From Escherichia phage phiv142-3: a stretch of DNA of 39,293 nucleotides. Under the pieces are notes generated by a model. The model was not told the origin of the DNA. It saw only the letters and a list, made by a program, of their open reading frames with translations, and did no database searches. The translations under genes were made by a program, and so were the position numbers. Below are positions 1 to 39,293 of the stretch, piece by piece (within the stretch, counting starts at the first letter, position 1; the number at the start of each line of letters is the position of its first letter). The DNA is taken from sequence record MN187550.1; one strand, 5' to 3'.

Positions 1-17
1 AATCATTCCCACTCAAT
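1..17. repeat. 17-bp direct repeat AATCATTCCCACTCAAT (putative att core, left copy)
   Basis: Identical 17-mer at 39277-39293; the window ends inside the repeat so it may extend further; integrase gene lies next to the right copy. Confidence 0.6.
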
Positions 18-127
18 TATTTACGACACACATAACCAATTGAGTGATAACATTTTTCCAAAGATGAATTTTTCTCGTACCGTTTTATATACCGTCACCG
101 GAAATCAGTACCATGAAAAATGCCATG

Positions 128-610
128 CTATCTGGTCAGGGTGTCGTACTGTTTTTCGCAGACTCTTCCGGCTTCGGCTGCCCGGTCAGCATACTCTGCC
201 AGTTGTCTATTTCTCTCGAGAGATTTGCTGAACACGTCGGCAAGCAAAACTCCGGTGTCTGCGGCTGACGACCCAGCGCCGACAATGGCGTTATAGTGCC
301 TGAGCTGCTCACGGATGGCAACGAGCTGTTGCTGCAACCGGCCAGCGCGAGCGGCAGCATCAAGAGCATCATTGCGCGCCTGGTCGATCCTCTGCTGCGC
401 TTCACGTTCATTGATCGATTTCTCCTGTTCGTAGTGCTGACGAACTCTCTCATCTTCGGTTTTGCGGTCTTCTTTCGCCTGTGCATACCCAGCGTCGTAC
501 TGACGACTGCCGTGCACATTCCAGGCAACAACTCCTGATATGACCAGAACAGCAAGCACCGCCATGATAATCAACTGTTTACGGTATGCTTTTACGAATG
601 ACCAGATCAT
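128..610 (-). CDS. Rz-like i-spanin (inner-membrane spanin)
   Basis: 160 aa with N-terminal TM segment then charged coiled-coil-like region; directly downstream of endolysin with 4-bp overlap; a lipoprotein ORF is embedded in the +1 frame. Confidence 0.6.
136..411 (-). CDS. Rz1-like o-spanin (outer-membrane lipoprotein) embedded in the i-spanin gene
   Basis: Alternate frame within 136..555 encodes [26 protein letters not shown]: basic n-region, hydrophobic core, lipobox LAGC, then a Pro/Ser-rich mature part. Start at M49 chosen (M62 is the alternative). Confidence 0.5.
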   Translation of the reverse strand: MNVKRSRGSTRRAMMLLMLPLALAGCSNSSLPSVSSSGTITPLSALGRQPQTPEFCLPTCSANLSREIDNWQSMLTGQPKPEESAKNSTTP

Positions 611-1236
611 ACAGCCAGCACCTTACTGGCAGTGACGTACCGCGCGCGCCGGTCGTCGATGCCATTCCTGCCACCATTGATAATCAGAGTTACACGTGCA
701 ATATCGCCGGTATACTTCATGCAACCTTTGCTGGAGAAGAACCACGCCGCGCTACGAGCCGCGTATTCGTCCTGCGCCAACAGTTCAGGATTCTCCAGCA
801 GGTCCACTTTCAGGCCGTTTCCGCAATCACGATAGTTATTCAAACCGGTAATCTGGATAAGTCCGCGGCCACGGTAATTCCAGCCATCGCCGGGGGCATT
901 GTTCCCCATGCGTTTGCTGTACACCAGATTGGCAATCGCTCTCTGGCGCTCAAGTGGCAATGGTGGTTCGCCTGCGCGTCGCCCCAATGCGTTGGCCTGT
1001 CCCTGAGTGAGACGCCCAGCCCGAACAAAGTTAGCCAGACCGCTGACGCTGTAGTTGAAATTCTCCTGCAACCGGGTGAAGCCCCCAGACTCATGCCCGA
1101 CCTGAGCAATAAACATTGCCTGATCTTCTGCTTTGCTGATACCAAACTCTTTCATCGCAGAAGTTATATGCGAGAACCAGCGTGCGGCCAGCGACTCGCT
1201 AATACCAGCAGCTCGCTGGAATTGTTTAATCTCCAT
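607..1236 (-). CDS. endolysin, glycoside hydrolase family 19-like
   Basis: C-terminal 209 aa of ORF 607..1467 (start at MEIKQFQ...) carries the [12 protein letters not shown]...GRGLIQITG pattern typical of GH19-type phage lysins; the upstream extension in the track is hydrophobic and overlaps the preceding gene. Confidence 0.75.
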
Positions 1237-1534
1237 GTTTAGACCTCGATATTTTGAAAATCTGAACAACGTTACCGCGTGTTTTAATAACCGCGGCGAG
1301 CATGACAGCGTTGATAATGACCTCAGATAAATCCACAGCCATTGGCGTGCGTAACCAGATTGCATAGACGACACGAACAGGAATACTGGCCGCAGCAACA
1401 ATAAGGAAATAAGCAAGCCACCCTCCCCATCTTCGATGTTGAGAGCCGTTACGCCGGAATGTGACAACGCGAATTGCTATGCCAGTACAAATAACTGCAT
1501 TGGTGATAAGCAAAAAAAACTCATGCGTTACCAT
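1226..1534 (-). CDS. holin-like small membrane protein
   Basis: 102 aa with 2-3 predicted TM helices, immediately upstream of the endolysin with a short overlap; GGAG about 10 nt upstream of the ATG. Confidence 0.45.
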
Positions 1535-1925
1535 CGTCTTTTCTCCCCGGAATTAACTCGCGTGGATTATCGGAACGGTGATAGAGCCATATACCAATAC
1601 GCACAGCAACAATTGCTGACACGAATGCGCCAGCTGAGAAAACAATCCCTTTTTCAAAAGAGTCCTGCGTGATGGTAGGGATCAGGCTGGCTATGCCGAT
1701 AAGAATTGATGCTGCTGGTTTATAAAAAAGAAGGCCGCAGAGAAAGCTAAGCATCGACAAGAGTACACGACGACGAATAGGATACTCTACCGCAGAGGTA
1801 ACAAAAATTACCGCCCCAGCCAAAGCCCCCAAAGCAACCTCAGGAGGAACTCCTGCTATCACCGCCGCCAGAGAACTCATGCTAAGCCACTGATTTAAAG
1901 TTTCACTGGTTAGTTGAGCTGACAT
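1521..1925 (-). CDS. holin-like membrane protein (possible holin/antiholin partner)
   Basis: ORF 1521..1934; the ATG at 1925 (MSAQLTSE...) has a GGTGG RBS-like sequence just upstream, while the track start is GTG. Multiple hydrophobic segments. Confidence 0.45.
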   Translation of the reverse strand: MSAQLTSETLNQWLSMSSLAAVIAGVPPEVALGALAGAVIFVTSAVEYPIRRRVLLSMLSFLCGLLFYKPAASILIGIASLIPTITQDSFEKGIVFSAGAFVSAIVAVRIGIWLYHRSDNPRELIPGRKDDGNA

Positions 1926-2147
1926 GTTTTCCACCGTTTATATGCATAACTACCTCCTGAATAGTAAAGGCATTACGCATGATAAACCATTTATGGTTTT
2001 TTGTTACCCATGTATTGTCAATCCCCTTCCTTTCATGTCGATAATAAGGCTTGCCTTTTACATAACTCTGAAGAGATTGCAGTACAGAAATGATTCAAAA
2101 TATAGAGGATTAGTTGAATTCCGCACCATCAAATGGCGCGGTAGCAG

Positions 2148-2447
2148 TCAAATAGAGAAATAAACACAAAAACAAACAGTAACAGGAACAACAAAGTCAA
2201 ACAGGCTTCCAACATCCCATACGCGCGGATCAAAACCTCCCCACCACGGCATGTTGATACGTTTCCCTTTCCCAAACTTTTCTATCCAGCGATATTCTGC
2301 CTGGGTGTGTTCACGCGCAATGAAGAACGTACAACCGGCTATCGCACCGTAAGCCCAGTTTCCGGTAAAAAGACCGACCAGAACTTGTGCGACAACAGCG
2401 CAAAGTGCGTGAAGAATTGGTGTTATATCAACTTCTATATTCATCAT
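2148..2447 (-). CDS. small integral membrane protein (moron candidate)
   Basis: 99 aa, three hydrophobic segments; lies between tailspike and lysis genes in an AT-rich stretch; a TATATAAT -10-like sequence sits just after the tailspike stop. Confidence 0.5.
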   Translation of the reverse strand: MMNIEVDITPILHALCAVVAQVLVGLFTGNWAYGAIAGCTFFIAREHTQAEYRWIEKFGKGKRINMPWWGGFDPRVWDVGSLFDFVVPVTVCFCVYFSI

Positions 2448-2523
2448 AAATAACTCATTCGATTTTCACAAATAAGCCGCCAACAAGAAGACGGCATTAA
2501 CATTAAAATAATTATATATGATG

Positions 2524-37577: not shown

Positions 37578-37638
37578 CAAATGCATTCAGCAATGCTCCG
37601 CTGTCACCAACAGACAACCAGGGGCGGGAGCGTGCTGC

Positions 37639-37833
37639 ATGAACAGGGCATCACCAGCAGATTTAAGAAAATGCCTTGAAACTGCAAACATGCTTGCACA
37701 CAGCGGGATCAGGTTTGTTCCAATTCCCGCTGTCACTGATGCTGAATTTGCAACACTGTCAGCAATATTCGAAAACAAAATTGAATCACTGGCAGCAGAA
37801 GCAGAGATGGAAGAAAATCAGCAGAACTATTAA
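37639..37833 (+). CDS. hypothetical small protein
   Basis: 64 aa from internal ATG (GGGAG RBS) of ORF 37519..37833; converges on the integrase gene. Confidence 0.4.
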   Translation: MNRASPADLRKCLETANMLAHSGIRFVPIPAVTDAEFATLSAIFENKIESLAAEAEMEENQQNY

Positions 37834-37836
37834 ACG

Positions 37837-39086
37837 TTATTCCCCCGCCATCCACTTCTCAAACTTCGACGGGGAGAACGGAATCAGATCCGTATGCTCC
37901 CCGTCAATCCATGAATCAATCATATCGGCCCACTGCTGCAACATGTAGGCGCGCTGTCTGGCGTATTCCGCTTTGTTATATACGGCGCGCACACCTTTCT
38001 GCTCATGTGCCAGAGCCTTTTCAATCCAGTCTGAAGGATAACCAGCCTCATGCAACAACGTACTGGCTGTACGGCGCATATCATGTACAGTGAAGTCCTG
38101 AATATGCTCACCATCTTCATTTATTATTTTCACCGTTCTGTCGATCAGAGAGTTCAGCGCGGCATTAGATAATGGCTTCCGGAAATTGTAACGACCAGGA
38201 ACCAGATATTCACTTCCACCAGCGCACATCTGCAACCCGACCAATATATCATGTGCCTGTTTAGGCAGGTAAATAACGTGCGCCCGGCTTCCCTTCATGC
38301 GGTCTGGAGGAATTGTCCATGTCCATTTTTTAAAATCTATTTCATCCCACGTTGCATTGGTGAATTCGCCCTTACGAACCATAGTGATAAGCACCAGTTT
38401 TAAAGCCATTTTCATAGTGCCCATAGCACCAATGGCATCCAGCGTGCGGAAGAACAGGCCAATTTCTTCTGGTGTCAGTGTTCGCTCTCGTGGTTTAAAT
38501 ATGGCGATAGACGAAGGTTTAATGTCAGCCGCAGGATTAAACAAACCATGACCACGGTCATTGGCGTGACGGTATACGCTACTGATGATCTCCCTGGCCT
38601 GCACTGCTGTTGCCCGGCCACCGCGTTCGACAATCCGGTCACACAAATCACGAACCATCGATGTGGTAATTTCAGCCATCATTTTATTGCCAAGAACCGG
38701 AAGTATGTCACGGTCGATCACCGCCTGTTCATTGCGCGGGTACTGTCAGCCAGGATGACGTGTTTCATATAACTGTCGGTATGTACCGCAAACGTCTCGG
38801 CACCACGAATCTTTTTGATACCGTCACGTTTAGCCGCAGCCGGTGACTGGCCTGCTTTAAGCAGCTTCTTTGCAGCAATCAGTTCTTCTCGCGCTTCTGC
38901 CAGGCTGATACCGTCACGCCCATACTGCCCGATTACCAGTGTTTCGCGGCGACCGTTGATACGGTAGTCATAGCGAAACGAGACCGTGCCTGACGTAAGC
39001 ACAGCTACATACAGCCCGTCACGATCGGAGACCTTGTACAGTTTGTCCTGCGGCTTGAGGTTTTTTAATTTTGTATCGGTAAGCAC
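37837..39086 (-). pseudogene. int: P4-type tyrosine integrase interrupted by a frameshift
   Basis: N-terminal arm-binding part (ORF 38718..39086, 122 aa, GTG start) and catalytic part (ORF 37837..38721, 294 aa, with HDMRRT...VYNKAEY active-site-like residues) are in different frames overlapping at ~38718-38721; together ~416 aa. A sequencing error cannot be excluded. Confidence 0.6.
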
Positions 39087-39128
39087 AATTCACCCGTATA
39101 GAAACCATTTTCATGACGGTATGAGAGT

Positions 39129-39143
39129 ATACCTTTAAGGTAA
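39129..39143. promoter_or_regulatory. operator-like palindrome ATACCTTTAAGGTAA (site S10) upstream of the integrase start
   Basis: One arm mismatch relative to TTACC; about 45 bp upstream of the int start codon. Confidence 0.45.
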
Positions 39144-39276
39144 TACCGTCACCTGTACCGACGAAAAATATGGTGTAGAGTGAATAGAAATGAATACATA
39201 AAAACAAAAACCCTCTGTAAAAACAGAGGGTTAAATTAGTATCTGAATAGGAATGAGTTGCTATGAGTTAGCTGTT

Positions 39277-39293
39277 AATCATTCCCACTCAAT
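39277..39293. repeat. 17-bp direct repeat AATCATTCCCACTCAAT (putative att core, right copy)
   Basis: Identical to positions 1-17; the window terminates inside or at the repeat. Confidence 0.6.

What the first reader, a model, noticed from the sequence alone, without database searches (positions are those of the whole stretch)
1..39293. The window is bounded exactly by a 17-bp direct repeat: a complete prophage with T7-like virion gene order inside a lambdoid regulatory chassis
AATCATTCCCACTCAAT occurs at 1-17 and 39277-39293 and the integrase abuts the right copy, so the window appears to be excised precisely at attL/attR. The structural operon has protein sizes and order (portal 559, scaffold, capsid, 201, 823, 154, 181, 837, 600+824 aa, plus a tail fibre with a gp17-like N-terminus) that track T7 gp8-gp17. 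It is combined with lambda-type O/P replication, a cI/cro-like switch and exo/RecT recombination. Temperate elements with T7-like virions are uncommon.
Basis: partly seen in the sequence, partly recalled or inferred. Interest (0 to 1): 0.5.

Follow-up and report, generated by a model that had tools for sequence, protein, structure and literature searches.

The report
phiV10/epsilon15-like prophage at guaA
The window is a complete copy of a well-known kind of E. coli prophage (phiV10/epsilon15-like, genus Uetakevirus), cut exactly at its published 17-bp attachment site in the end of the guaA gene, so the finding is correct but ordinary.

Summary
AATCATTCCCACTCAAT is exact at 1-17 and 39277-39293 (0 of 100 shuffles). 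It is the published attP/attB core of phiV10, epsilon15 and vB_EcoP_ZX5 (attgagtgggaatgatt, reverse complement). The core covers the last four codons and the stop codon of guaA. K-12 has one copy at guaA. A complete lysogen has two copies flanking the prophage between guaA and yfgI. The phiV10 virion genome has one copy between Rz and int. The window is gene-for-gene colinear with phiV10 (82% covered, 96.4% identical).

About 10% of complete E. coli genomes (548 of 5426) carry this int-guaA junction. The T7-like reading of the tail and ejection genes is largely right. Portal and gp14 pass Pfam cut-offs, the adaptor matches gp11 by fold, and the nozzle matches gp12 by profile. This was already published by Hardies et al. 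2016. The capsid, terminase and the gene in the scaffold position show no T7 match.

The "lambdoid" early region is only partly lambda-like. It has a lambda P homologue, an O-like/DnaT initiator, a repressor with HTH domains only plus an antirepressor, and RecE-like/RecT genes.

One caveat: int and the MT-A70 methylase carry private 1-bp homopolymer deletions. Novelty: already known. Interest is low.

The parts
1..17 (.). attL core (17 bp), left prophage junction next to host yfgI
   Evidence: Exact repeat. In lysogen strain 755 it is preceded by the yfgI side of the host intergenic region.
39277..39293 (.). attR core (17 bp). Its reverse complement ATTGAGTGGGAATGATT encodes the last four guaA codons (IEWE), the stop codon and 2 further nt.
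   Evidence: Identical to the published attP/attB core (PMC9782041).
39209..39232 (-). Intrinsic terminator between the att core and int. Its stem is identical to that of the host guaA/yfgI terminator. It ends guaA transcription in the lysogen and late-operon transcription in the circular phage.
   Evidence: Terminator scan. Fold energy -17.4 kcal/mol, z = -4.9. Alignment with K-12 attB and phiV10 attP. phiV10 annotates a terminator at the same place. The function is inferred.
37837..39086 (-). P4-type tyrosine integrase, split by a 1-bp deletion near 38728 into an arm-binding ORF (122 aa) and a core-binding plus catalytic ORF (294 aa)
   Evidence: PF13356, PF22022 and PF00589. Alignment with the intact CE10 gene.
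36996..37642 (+). MT-A70 adenine methyltransferase gene carrying four 1-bp homopolymer deletions relative to CE10
36347..36595 (+). AlpA-family small DNA-binding protein, a likely excisionase or regulator
   Evidence: PF05930. The phiV10p36 homologue is annotated the same way.
34598..36297 (+). Recombination pair: PD-(D/E)XK RecE-like exonuclease (34598-35419) and RecT annealase (35416-36297)
   Evidence: PF12684 and PF03837. PGAP names in strain 755.
32364..32948 (+). Prophage repressor (194 aa) with HTH domains and no S24 peptidase domain
   Evidence: PF01381 and other HTH families. PHROG transcriptional repressor and regulator families. The same protein was studied as the repressor in ZX5 and phiV10.
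31979..32209 (-). Cro-like small repressor, transcribed divergently from the repressor gene
   Evidence: phrog_35 transcriptional repressor. Gene arrangement.
30016..31613 (-). Replication genes: O-like HTH_36 + DnaT-domain initiator (30798-31613) and lambda P-family helicase loader (30016-30816)
   Evidence: PF13730, PF17948 and PF06992. phrog_1032 and O-like PHROGs.
24386..26532 (-). Terminase small subunit (25858-26532) and large subunit (24386-25861)
   Evidence: PF03592. phiV10 and PGAP annotation of the colinear genes.
21665..23344 (-). Portal protein of the T7 gp8 family
   Evidence: PF12236, 624 bits. phrog_332.
20674..21375 (-). 233-aa protein in the scaffold position, labelled protease in phage databases. 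Its function is unresolved.
   Evidence: phrog_458 'protease'. PGAP 'protease'. No Pfam family and no similarity to T7 gp9.
19673..20665 (-). Major capsid protein of the epsilon15 gp7 family
   Evidence: PF20911, 497 bits.
18464..19621 (-). Three small head genes with no T7 counterpart: 145 aa (Bbp16-type cement), 114 aa, and 109 aa (epsilon15 gp10-type capsid staple)
   Evidence: PGAP names of the colinear genes in strain 755. PHROGs 427, 590 and 825.
17859..18464 (-). Tail adaptor (201 aa), a fold homologue of T7 gp11
   Evidence: AF2 model with pLDDT 85. Foldseek hits: Carin-1 8ck1_E at E=3e-16 and T7 gp11 7box_N at E=3e-6, TM 0.59.
15388..17859 (-). Tail nozzle (823 aa), a distant homologue of T7 gp12
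   Evidence: 8ck1_A 'Tail Nozzle', 726 bits. Profile against T7 gp12: hhalign E=2.3e-5. PDB 'nozzle gp13' at E=1.9e-5. Hardies et al. report HMM-HMM E<1e-10 for epsilon15 gp12 against T7 gp12.
14379..15388 (-). Internal virion proteins: 154 aa in the gp13 (IVP-A) position and 181 aa of the T7 gp14 (IVP-B) family
   Evidence: PF24072 at 31.2 bits, cut-off 27. PF11090 at 13.6 bits, sub-threshold. PHROGs 308 and 418 'internal virion protein'.
7587..14379 (-). Large ejection (core) proteins. The 837-aa protein has a lysozyme-like domain at residues 274-423 of the 862-aa GTG-start ORF that was searched (about 249-398 of the 837-aa protein). The 600-aa protein follows. Both are candidates for the gp15/IVP-C role. 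The 824-aa protein corresponds to epsilon15 gp17, the published IVP-D/gp16 homologue.
   Evidence: 9vvp_L and 7q47_A lysozyme-domain hits. PHROGs. Hardies et al.. No direct T7 match in my own tests.
5189..6080 (+). Antirepressor module: isrK-like sRNA (5189-5265), C4 antisense RNA (5290-5374) and AntA antirepressor (5424-6080)
   Evidence: Rfam RF01394 at 67.7 bits and RF01695 at 61.2 bits, both above gathering scores. PF08346. phrog_377.
2524..4653 (-). Tailspike (709 aa). Its N-terminal anchor domain is shared with many podovirus spikes. Its body is a pectate-lyase-like beta-helix.
   Evidence: PF12708. Many tail PHROGs share residues 1-166. Carin-1 Dpo31 N-terminus at E=1.6e-31. PF03906 T7 tail N-terminal domain at 19.5 bits, below the cut-off of 25.2.
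128..1934 (-). Lysis cassette: two holins, a GH19 endolysin (607-1236) and a DUF2514 Rz-like spanin (128-610)
   Evidence: PF16931, PF05449, PF00182 and PF10721.

Best explanation
The window is the integrated form of a temperate short-tailed phage of the phiV10/epsilon15 group (genus Uetakevirus), cut exactly at attL and attR.

Integration. A P4-type tyrosine integrase recombines a 17-bp core in attP, which lies between the Rz spanin gene and int, with the identical 17 bp at the 3' end of host guaA. The core holds the last four codons and the stop codon, so GuaA is unchanged. The phage arm also supplies a look-alike of the guaA terminator. The prophage map is therefore a circular permutation of the virion map: lysis genes at the left end and int at the right.

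Regulation and replication. Lysogeny is held by a 194-aa HTH repressor facing a Cro-like gene. An Ant-type antirepressor, preceded by C4 and IsrK-like small RNAs, is the probable induction route. Replication uses an O-like/DnaT-domain initiator and a lambda P-type helicase loader.

Virion. It combines a T7 gp8-family portal, an epsilon15 gp7-family capsid with cement and staple proteins, an adaptor and nozzle homologous to T7 gp11 and gp12, an internal core of gp13/gp14-like and large ejection proteins, and O-antigen-directed tailspikes.

What is shown: the att site, the empty site, the colinearity with phiV10, and the family and fold matches. What is inferred: the roles of the terminator, the small RNAs and the large core proteins.
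For: - Repeat: exact and non-random.
- Empty site: K-12 has one copy overlapping the guaA stop codon.
- Lysogen junctions: yfgI on the left and guaA on the right. The complete lysogen strain 755 has two copies flanking the prophage.
- attP: the phiV10 virion genome has one copy between Rz and int.
- Literature: the same core sequence is published as attP/attB for ZX5, phiV10 and epsilon15 (PMC9782041). A phiV10-like prophage at guaA is reported in PMC3293862.
- Nucleotide similarity: 95-98% to phiV10, PAS61, ZX5, HEMP4 and TL-2011b. Against phiV10, 82% of the window is covered at 96.4% identity, with no gaps over the 16.7-kb structural block.
- Protein families.
- Tail proteins: adaptor fold match to T7 gp11. 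Nozzle profile match to T7 gp12.
- Published homology: Hardies et al. 2016 and the ejection-protein review PMC8954989.
- Prevalence: 548 of 5426 complete E. coli genomes carry the int-guaA junction.
Against: - The integrase and the MT-A70 methylase are interrupted by 1-bp deletions. As sequenced, this copy may be unable to excise.
- The window is only 79% similar overall to phiV10. Its tailspike body, antirepressor and several early genes are different modules, and it lacks phiV10's O-acetyltransferase.
- No virion or induction data exist for this particular copy.
- My own tests found no T7 match for the 837, 600 and 824-aa proteins. Their assignment rests on position and on the literature.
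Confidence: 0.95

Rival explanations
1. This copy is a defective, locked-in prophage. Real frameshifts in int and in the methylase stop it from excising, although everything else is intact.
For: There are six 1-bp deletions relative to CE10, all within 36731-38728: one in int, four in the MT-A70 gene and one just upstream of, or in, PerC. The int ORF is split into 122 aa and 294 aa.
Against: All six are deletions in homopolymer runs. All cluster in 2 kb, while the 16.7-kb structural block has no gap against phiV10. None is shared by any of 553 related prophages in complete genomes, where the best match is 99.3%. This pattern fits an unpolished or low-quality assembly stretch at least as well as genuine decay.
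Confidence: 0.25
2. It is a temperate member of the T7 family proper (Autographiviridae) that has acquired lysogeny genes.
For: The portal, gp14-like protein, adaptor and nozzle are related to T7 gp8, gp14, gp11 and gp12. The gene order parallels gp8-gp17.
Against: - No ORF could be a single-subunit RNA polymerase or a T7-type DNA polymerase or primase. Every ORF above 350 aa is structural or terminase, and none hits such Pfam families.
- Pairwise comparison with T7 gp7-gp19 gives nothing significant.
- The capsid is of the epsilon15 gp7 family, and the terminase genes lie upstream of the portal.
- Nucleotide identity is to Uetakevirus genomes.
Confidence: 0.02
3. It is a P22-like lambdoid podovirus prophage.
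For: It has a short-tailed tailspike architecture, an antirepressor module reminiscent of P22 immI, and a lambda P homologue.
Against: The portal is PF12236 (T7 gp8 family), not the P22 portal family. The capsid is PF20911. The adaptor and nozzle match the Carin-1, LME-1 and T7 types. The best nucleotide matches are phiV10 and epsilon15 relatives, not P22.
Confidence: 0.02

Closest known systems
Escherichia phage phiV10 (NC_007804; Uetakevirus phiV10) and close relatives vB_EcoP_ZX5, vB_EcoP_PAS61, HEMP4 and TL-2011b
   Same: The gene order is the same gene for gene, from terminase to Rz and from int to P. The 17-bp attP core and the guaA integration site are identical. Shared DNA is 96-98% identical, including a gap-free 16.7-kb structural block. 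The repressor is the same.
   Different: Overall similarity to phiV10 is only 79%. The tailspike body differs and there is no oac O-acetyltransferase. The antirepressor is AntA rather than Bro-N type. An extra 344-aa coiled-coil gene lies at 33260-34294, and several early 'ea22-like' genes are swapped. Int and the methylase are frameshifted in this copy.
Salmonella phage epsilon15 (AY150271), the prototype with a cryo-EM virion structure
   Same: It has the same structural gene set, and the published homologies to T7 proteins were worked out on it. Its attP core is reported to be the same. The capsid and staple families are named after its gp7 and gp10.
   Different: Nucleotide identity is about 76% and limited to the structural half. 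The host, tailspike and serotype-conversion genes differ. The repressor is 42% identical according to PMC9782041.
Phage T7 virion module gp8-gp17
   Same: The order and approximate sizes match: portal, capsid, adaptor, nozzle, small and large internal proteins, then fibre. Homology is detectable for gp8, gp11, gp12 and gp14, with hints for gp13 and the gp17 N-terminus.
   Different: - No pairwise sequence similarity.
- The gene in the scaffold position is labelled protease and shows no gp9 similarity.
- The capsid belongs to a different family, and three extra head genes are present.
- The lysozyme domain sits on the protein in the gp15 position, not on the gp16 homologue.
- The terminase lies upstream of the portal.
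- There is no RNA polymerase-driven lytic programme.
- The phage is temperate.
Cobetia marina podovirus Carin-1 (PDB 8CK1), the nearest solved tail structure
   Same: Its connector (adaptor), tail nozzle and tailspike N-terminal anchor are clear sequence homologues: 95 bits, 726 bits and 112 bits respectively.
   Different: It is a marine phage of a different host. The adaptor is only 32% identical. The tailspike enzymatic domains are unrelated.

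Membership tests
Uetakevirus (phiV10/epsilon15-like temperate podoviruses) | Genome-wide nucleotide similarity above about 70% to a member of the genus (the usual ICTV genus criterion, from my own knowledge) | tested here: met
   Against phiV10: 82.1% covered at 96.4% identity, giving 79% similarity. Hits of 96-98% to PAS61, ZX5 and HEMP4. Similarity is below 95% to each, so by that rule it is not the same species as any isolate in the collection.
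Uetakevirus (phiV10/epsilon15-like temperate podoviruses) | Conserved gene order: terminase, portal, capsid, adaptor/nozzle, internal proteins, tailspike, lysis, attP, int, recombination, repressor/cro, replication | tested here: met
   The phiV10 annotation matches the window ORFs and the BLAST colinearity.
Uetakevirus (phiV10/epsilon15-like temperate podoviruses) | Integration at the 3' end of guaA through the core attgagtgggaatgatt | tested here: met
   Published core in PMC9782041.
Uetakevirus (phiV10/epsilon15-like temperate podoviruses) | Short-tailed virion with six tailspikes and an internal core | not testable with these tools
   This needs induction and electron microscopy. It is only inferred from homologous genes.
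T7-like phages (Autographiviridae) | Phage-encoded single-subunit RNA polymerase | tested here: not met
   There is no unassigned ORF of suitable size. None of the large proteins hits an RNA polymerase Pfam family.
T7-like phages (Autographiviridae) | Structural proteins recognisably similar to T7 gp8-gp17 at the sequence level | tested here: not met
   Pairwise blastp and phmmer against T7 gp7-gp19 give nothing significant. Only profile or fold methods detect gp8, gp11, gp12 and gp14.
'Transient tail' podovirus homology group of Hardies et al. 2016 (T7, phiRIO-1, epsilon15, N4, P22 and F116 groups) | Homologues of tubular tail proteins A and B (adaptor and nozzle), followed by IVP-A and IVP-B and then large IVP-C and IVP-D genes | tested here: met
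   Adaptor fold match. Nozzle profile match to the same central region of gp12 that the paper reports. gp14 family hit and a gp13 hint. IVP-C and IVP-D are assigned by position and literature only.
Lambdoid phages | Divergent repressor/cro genes flanked by early-left recombination genes and early-right replication genes | tested here: met
   Arrangement at 30016-36297. A terminator and a promoter-like TTGACA...TAATTAT sequence lie between the repressor gene and the early-left genes (read directly from the sequence).
Lambdoid phages | Lambda O and P replication proteins | tested here: inconclusive
   The P family is met (PF06992, 192 bits). The initiator is HTH_36 + DnaT domain, with only weaker 'O-like' PHROG hits and no hit to the lambda O Pfam family.
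Lambdoid phages | LexA-like self-cleaving cI repressor and N/Q antitermination | tested here: not met
   The repressor has HTH domains only and no S24 peptidase domain. No protein scanned against Pfam or PHROGs matched an N or Q antiterminator family. The small protein upstream of the terminase is only labelled 'transcriptional regulator'.

The most novel reading that the evidence does not exclude
The decision between lysogeny and lytic growth in this phage group may be set by a P1-type RNA circuit rather than by a lambda-type self-cleaving cI. A C4 antisense RNA and an IsrK-like Hfq-binding sRNA lie directly upstream of the Ant antirepressor gene, and the repressor has HTH domains only. If so, the 'lambdoid chassis' would really be a hybrid of lambda-like gene order and a P1/P22 immI-like secondary immunity system. 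None of the papers I read on this group describes that RNA layer.
Probability: 0.4. Interest if true: 0.2.

Novelty: already known. Interest (0 to 1): 0.08.

Why it matters
It matters little as a discovery. The phage group, its attachment core, its guaA integration site and the distant kinship of its tail and ejection proteins to T7 are all published. Similar prophages sit at this site in about one in ten complete E. coli genomes.

Its practical value is as a clean, exactly bounded example. The 17-bp core gives a precise way to delimit these prophages in genome annotation. The case also shows that gene order and size alone pointed correctly to a T7 relationship that pairwise sequence comparison misses.

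Two small open points remain. One is whether the int and methylase frameshifts are real. The other is whether the C4/IsrK-like RNAs control the antirepressor.

Tried and rejected
1. Direct blastp and phmmer of 17 window proteins against T7 gp7-gp19 gave nothing significant. The T7 link cannot be shown by pairwise comparison.
2. The AlphaFold model of the 823-aa nozzle failed (pLDDT 39.8). It was built from the only alignment allowed, with homologues at least 82% identical. I did not use it. I replaced it with a diverse profile from the representative search compared with T7 gp12.
3. The profile of the 201-aa family did not reach T7 gp11 by sequence against PDB. Only the fold search did.
4. Sequence searches of PDB with the 824, 600 and 181-aa proteins found no relatives. 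NCBIfam gave no names for the structural proteins.
5. A PADLOC scan of ten unassigned accessory ORFs found no defence-system match.
6. I searched papers for the PDB code 8CK1 and found only irrelevant hits. Carin-1 was identified through the Dpo31 paper instead.
7. I considered and rejected three alternatives: a chance repeat, an Autographiviridae member (no RNA polymerase) and a P22-like phage (different portal and capsid families).

Full report
**Observation.** The 17-mer AATCATTCCCACTCAAT is present exactly twice in the window, at 1-17 and 39277-39293 on the same strand. The chance expectation is 0.02 matches, and 0 of 100 shuffles gave two. The integrase lies 191 bp inside the right copy. 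It is split into two ORFs, 122 aa (arm-binding domain) and 294 aa (core-binding and catalytic domains).

**Identity of the element.** Megablast against phage genomes shows 95-98% identity to Escherichia phage phiV10, vB_EcoP_PAS61, vB_EcoP_ZX5, HEMP4, TL-2011b and O157 typing phages 9 and 10. Identity is about 76-81% to Enterobacter phage Tyrion and to Salmonella phages SPN1S and epsilon15. These are temperate podoviruses of the genus Uetakevirus (taxonomy line).
- The phiV10 annotation is gene-for-gene colinear with the window once the map is circularly permuted at the att site.
- phiV10 covers 82% of the window at 96.4% identity, including a 16.7-kb structural block without a single gap.
- The segments that differ are the tailspike body, parts of the antirepressor region, a few 'ea22-like' early genes and an extra 344-aa coiled-coil gene. 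The window has no homologue of phiV10's O-acetyltransferase.

**The repeat is the attachment core.**
- The right end of the window continues into guaA in 548 of 5426 complete E. coli genomes (example CE10).
- The left end continues into the yfgI side of the same intergenic region.
- K-12 MG1655, which lacks the prophage, has one copy of the 17-mer. It overlaps the guaA stop codon, and its reverse complement ATTGAGTGGGAATGATT reads Ile-Glu-Trp-Glu-stop.
- Sequence identity between attB, attL and attR ends immediately outside the 17 bp.
- The complete lysogen strain 755 has guaB-guaA-[int ... Rz]-yfgI, with the two copies 39.9 kb apart.
- The phiV10 virion genome has one copy, between Rz and int.
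- The same sequence is published as the attP/attB core of ZX5, confirmed there by PCR and Sanger sequencing, and is stated to be proven for phiV10 and epsilon15 (PMC9782041). A phiV10-like prophage inserted in guaA was also reported in an O103:H25 strain (PMC3293862).

**A terminator in the phage arm.** The arm between the core and int carries an intrinsic terminator on the guaA strand, at 39232-39209. Its stem is identical to that of the host terminator it displaces. I infer that it ends guaA transcription in the lysogen and late transcription in the circular phage. In both states it would shield int from read-through.

**The T7-like claim.** Pairwise comparison with T7 gp7-gp19 gives nothing significant. 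Profile and fold methods do detect a relationship.
- Portal: PF12236, the T7 gp8 family, at 624 bits.
- 181-aa protein: passes the Pfam cut-off for the T7 gp14 family (31.2 bits against 27). PGAP gives the colinear gene of strain 755 the same name.
- 201-aa protein: a good AlphaFold model (pLDDT 85) matches podovirus adaptors over its full length. The best hit is Carin-1 8ck1_E (E=3e-16). T7 gp11 follows at E=3e-6 and TM 0.59, along with KP32 tail tubular protein A, phiM1, cyanophage and SU10 adaptors.
- 823-aa protein: a clear homologue of the Carin-1 'tail nozzle' (726 bits). My nozzle model failed (pLDDT 39.8). A diverse family profile aligned with T7 gp12 residues 351-466 (hhalign E=2.3e-5, probability 76%). 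It also hit another solved 'nozzle' protein. This is the same central region in which Hardies et al. reported strong HMM-HMM matching between epsilon15 gp12 and T7 gp12 (PMC4819975).
- Sub-threshold hits: the only Pfam hit of the 154-aa protein is T7 Gp13 (13.6 bits). The only Pfam hit of the tailspike N-terminus is the T7 tail-fibre N-terminal domain (19.5 bits, cut-off 25.2).
[quoted passage not shown] They assign gp17 (the 824-aa protein here) as the gp16/IVP-D homologue, and gp15 plus gp16 (837 and 600 aa here) as gp15/IVP-C candidates by position only. The 837-aa protein carries a lysozyme-like domain, which in T7 sits on gp16.

**Parts of the virion block that are not T7-like.**
- The capsid is of the epsilon15 gp7 family.
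- Three extra head genes are present, including a cement and a staple protein.
- The 233-aa 'scaffold' is labelled protease and has no gp9 similarity.
- The terminase genes lie upstream of the portal.
- Capsid and terminase of epsilon15 group with siphoviruses according to Hardies et al..

**The 'lambdoid chassis'.** The layout is lambda-like. A repressor and a Cro-like gene are divergent. A terminator and a promoter-like sequence come next, followed by the early-left genes: PD-(D/E)XK exonuclease, RecT, AlpA-like, PerC, MT-A70 methylase and DUF1382. To the right are an initiator and a lambda P homologue.

The parts differ from lambda in four ways. The initiator is HTH_36 plus a DnaT domain. 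The exonuclease is RecE-like. The repressor has no self-cleavage domain. No N or Q family was found. An AntA antirepressor on the opposite strand within the late region is preceded by Rfam-significant IsrK and C4 antisense RNA matches. This points to P1/P22-type secondary immunity. The ZX5 study showed experimentally that the repressor and an antirepressor affect the lytic-lysogenic balance.

**Integrity of this copy.** Relative to the CE10 prophage there are six 1-bp deletions, all in homopolymer runs and all between 36731 and 38728. One is at the PerC start region, four are in the MT-A70 gene and one is in int. No complete E. coli genome shares them; the best match is 99.3%. Clustered, private, deletion-only homopolymer changes beside a gap-free 16.7-kb block look more like a locally unpolished assembly than decay. 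I cannot decide this from the sequence alone. If the deletions are real, this copy cannot excise.

**Verdict.** However, the element is an ordinary member of a well-described and common phage group. The att core, the integration site and the T7 homologies are all in the literature. Temperate prophages of this type are not uncommon in E. coli: about 10% of complete genomes carry one at guaA, and the nozzle family has more than 18,000 clusters at 50% identity in public data. Novelty: already known. Interest is about 0.08.

Noticed in passing
window 36731-38728: There are six private 1-bp deletions relative to the E. coli CE10 prophage, all in homopolymer runs. They frameshift int (near 38728) and the MT-A70 methylase (four sites). 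The 16.7-kb structural block has no gap against phiV10, and no complete E. coli genome shares the deletions. Either the assembly is locally unpolished or this copy was recently inactivated.
   Followed up: partly
window 5189-5374 (+), upstream of AntA at 5424-6080: Rfam matches above gathering score to the IsrK Hfq-binding sRNA (67.7 bits) and the C4 antisense RNA (61.2 bits) lie directly in front of the antirepressor gene. This suggests P1-type RNA control of induction. The homologous phiV10 region (about 83% identical) has no RNA annotated.
   Followed up: no
window 23993-24069 (+): A tRNA-Arg (anticodon TCT, 73 bits) lies between the large terminase gene and the portal gene, on the strand opposite to the late genes. 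PGAP annotates it in strain 755, but phiV10 annotates a hypothetical ORF (p04) at that position.
   Followed up: partly
window 39209-39232 (-); K-12 locus L003 about 3907-3936: The phage att arm carries a terminator hairpin whose stem (CCCTCTG...CAGAGGG) is identical to that of the host guaA/yfgI terminator it displaces on integration. The phage therefore restores both the guaA stop codon and a terminator.
   Followed up: partly
L006 (E. coli strain 755 prophage) 28423-35412, against window 7587-14379: A sister prophage at the same site keeps the portal-to-gp14 block. It replaces the three large internal proteins (837, 600 and 824 aa) with genes of 915, 1129 (DUF919) and 283 aa. The ejection-protein module is therefore mosaic within the group.
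   Followed up: no
window 33260-34294 (+): An extra 344-aa gene absent from phiV10 sits near the start of the early-left operon, after a small 53-aa ORF. It is highly charged and rich in coiled-coil (long Glu/Arg/Ala repeats). It belongs to phrog_1376 of unknown function and has no Pfam or PADLOC match.
   Followed up: partly
window 1999-4218: The tailspike body and a 99-aa downstream ORF (phrog_1443, unknown function) replace phiV10's tailspike body and its oac O-acetyltransferase. This copy probably targets a different O-antigen and lacks that serotype-conversion gene.
   Followed up: no
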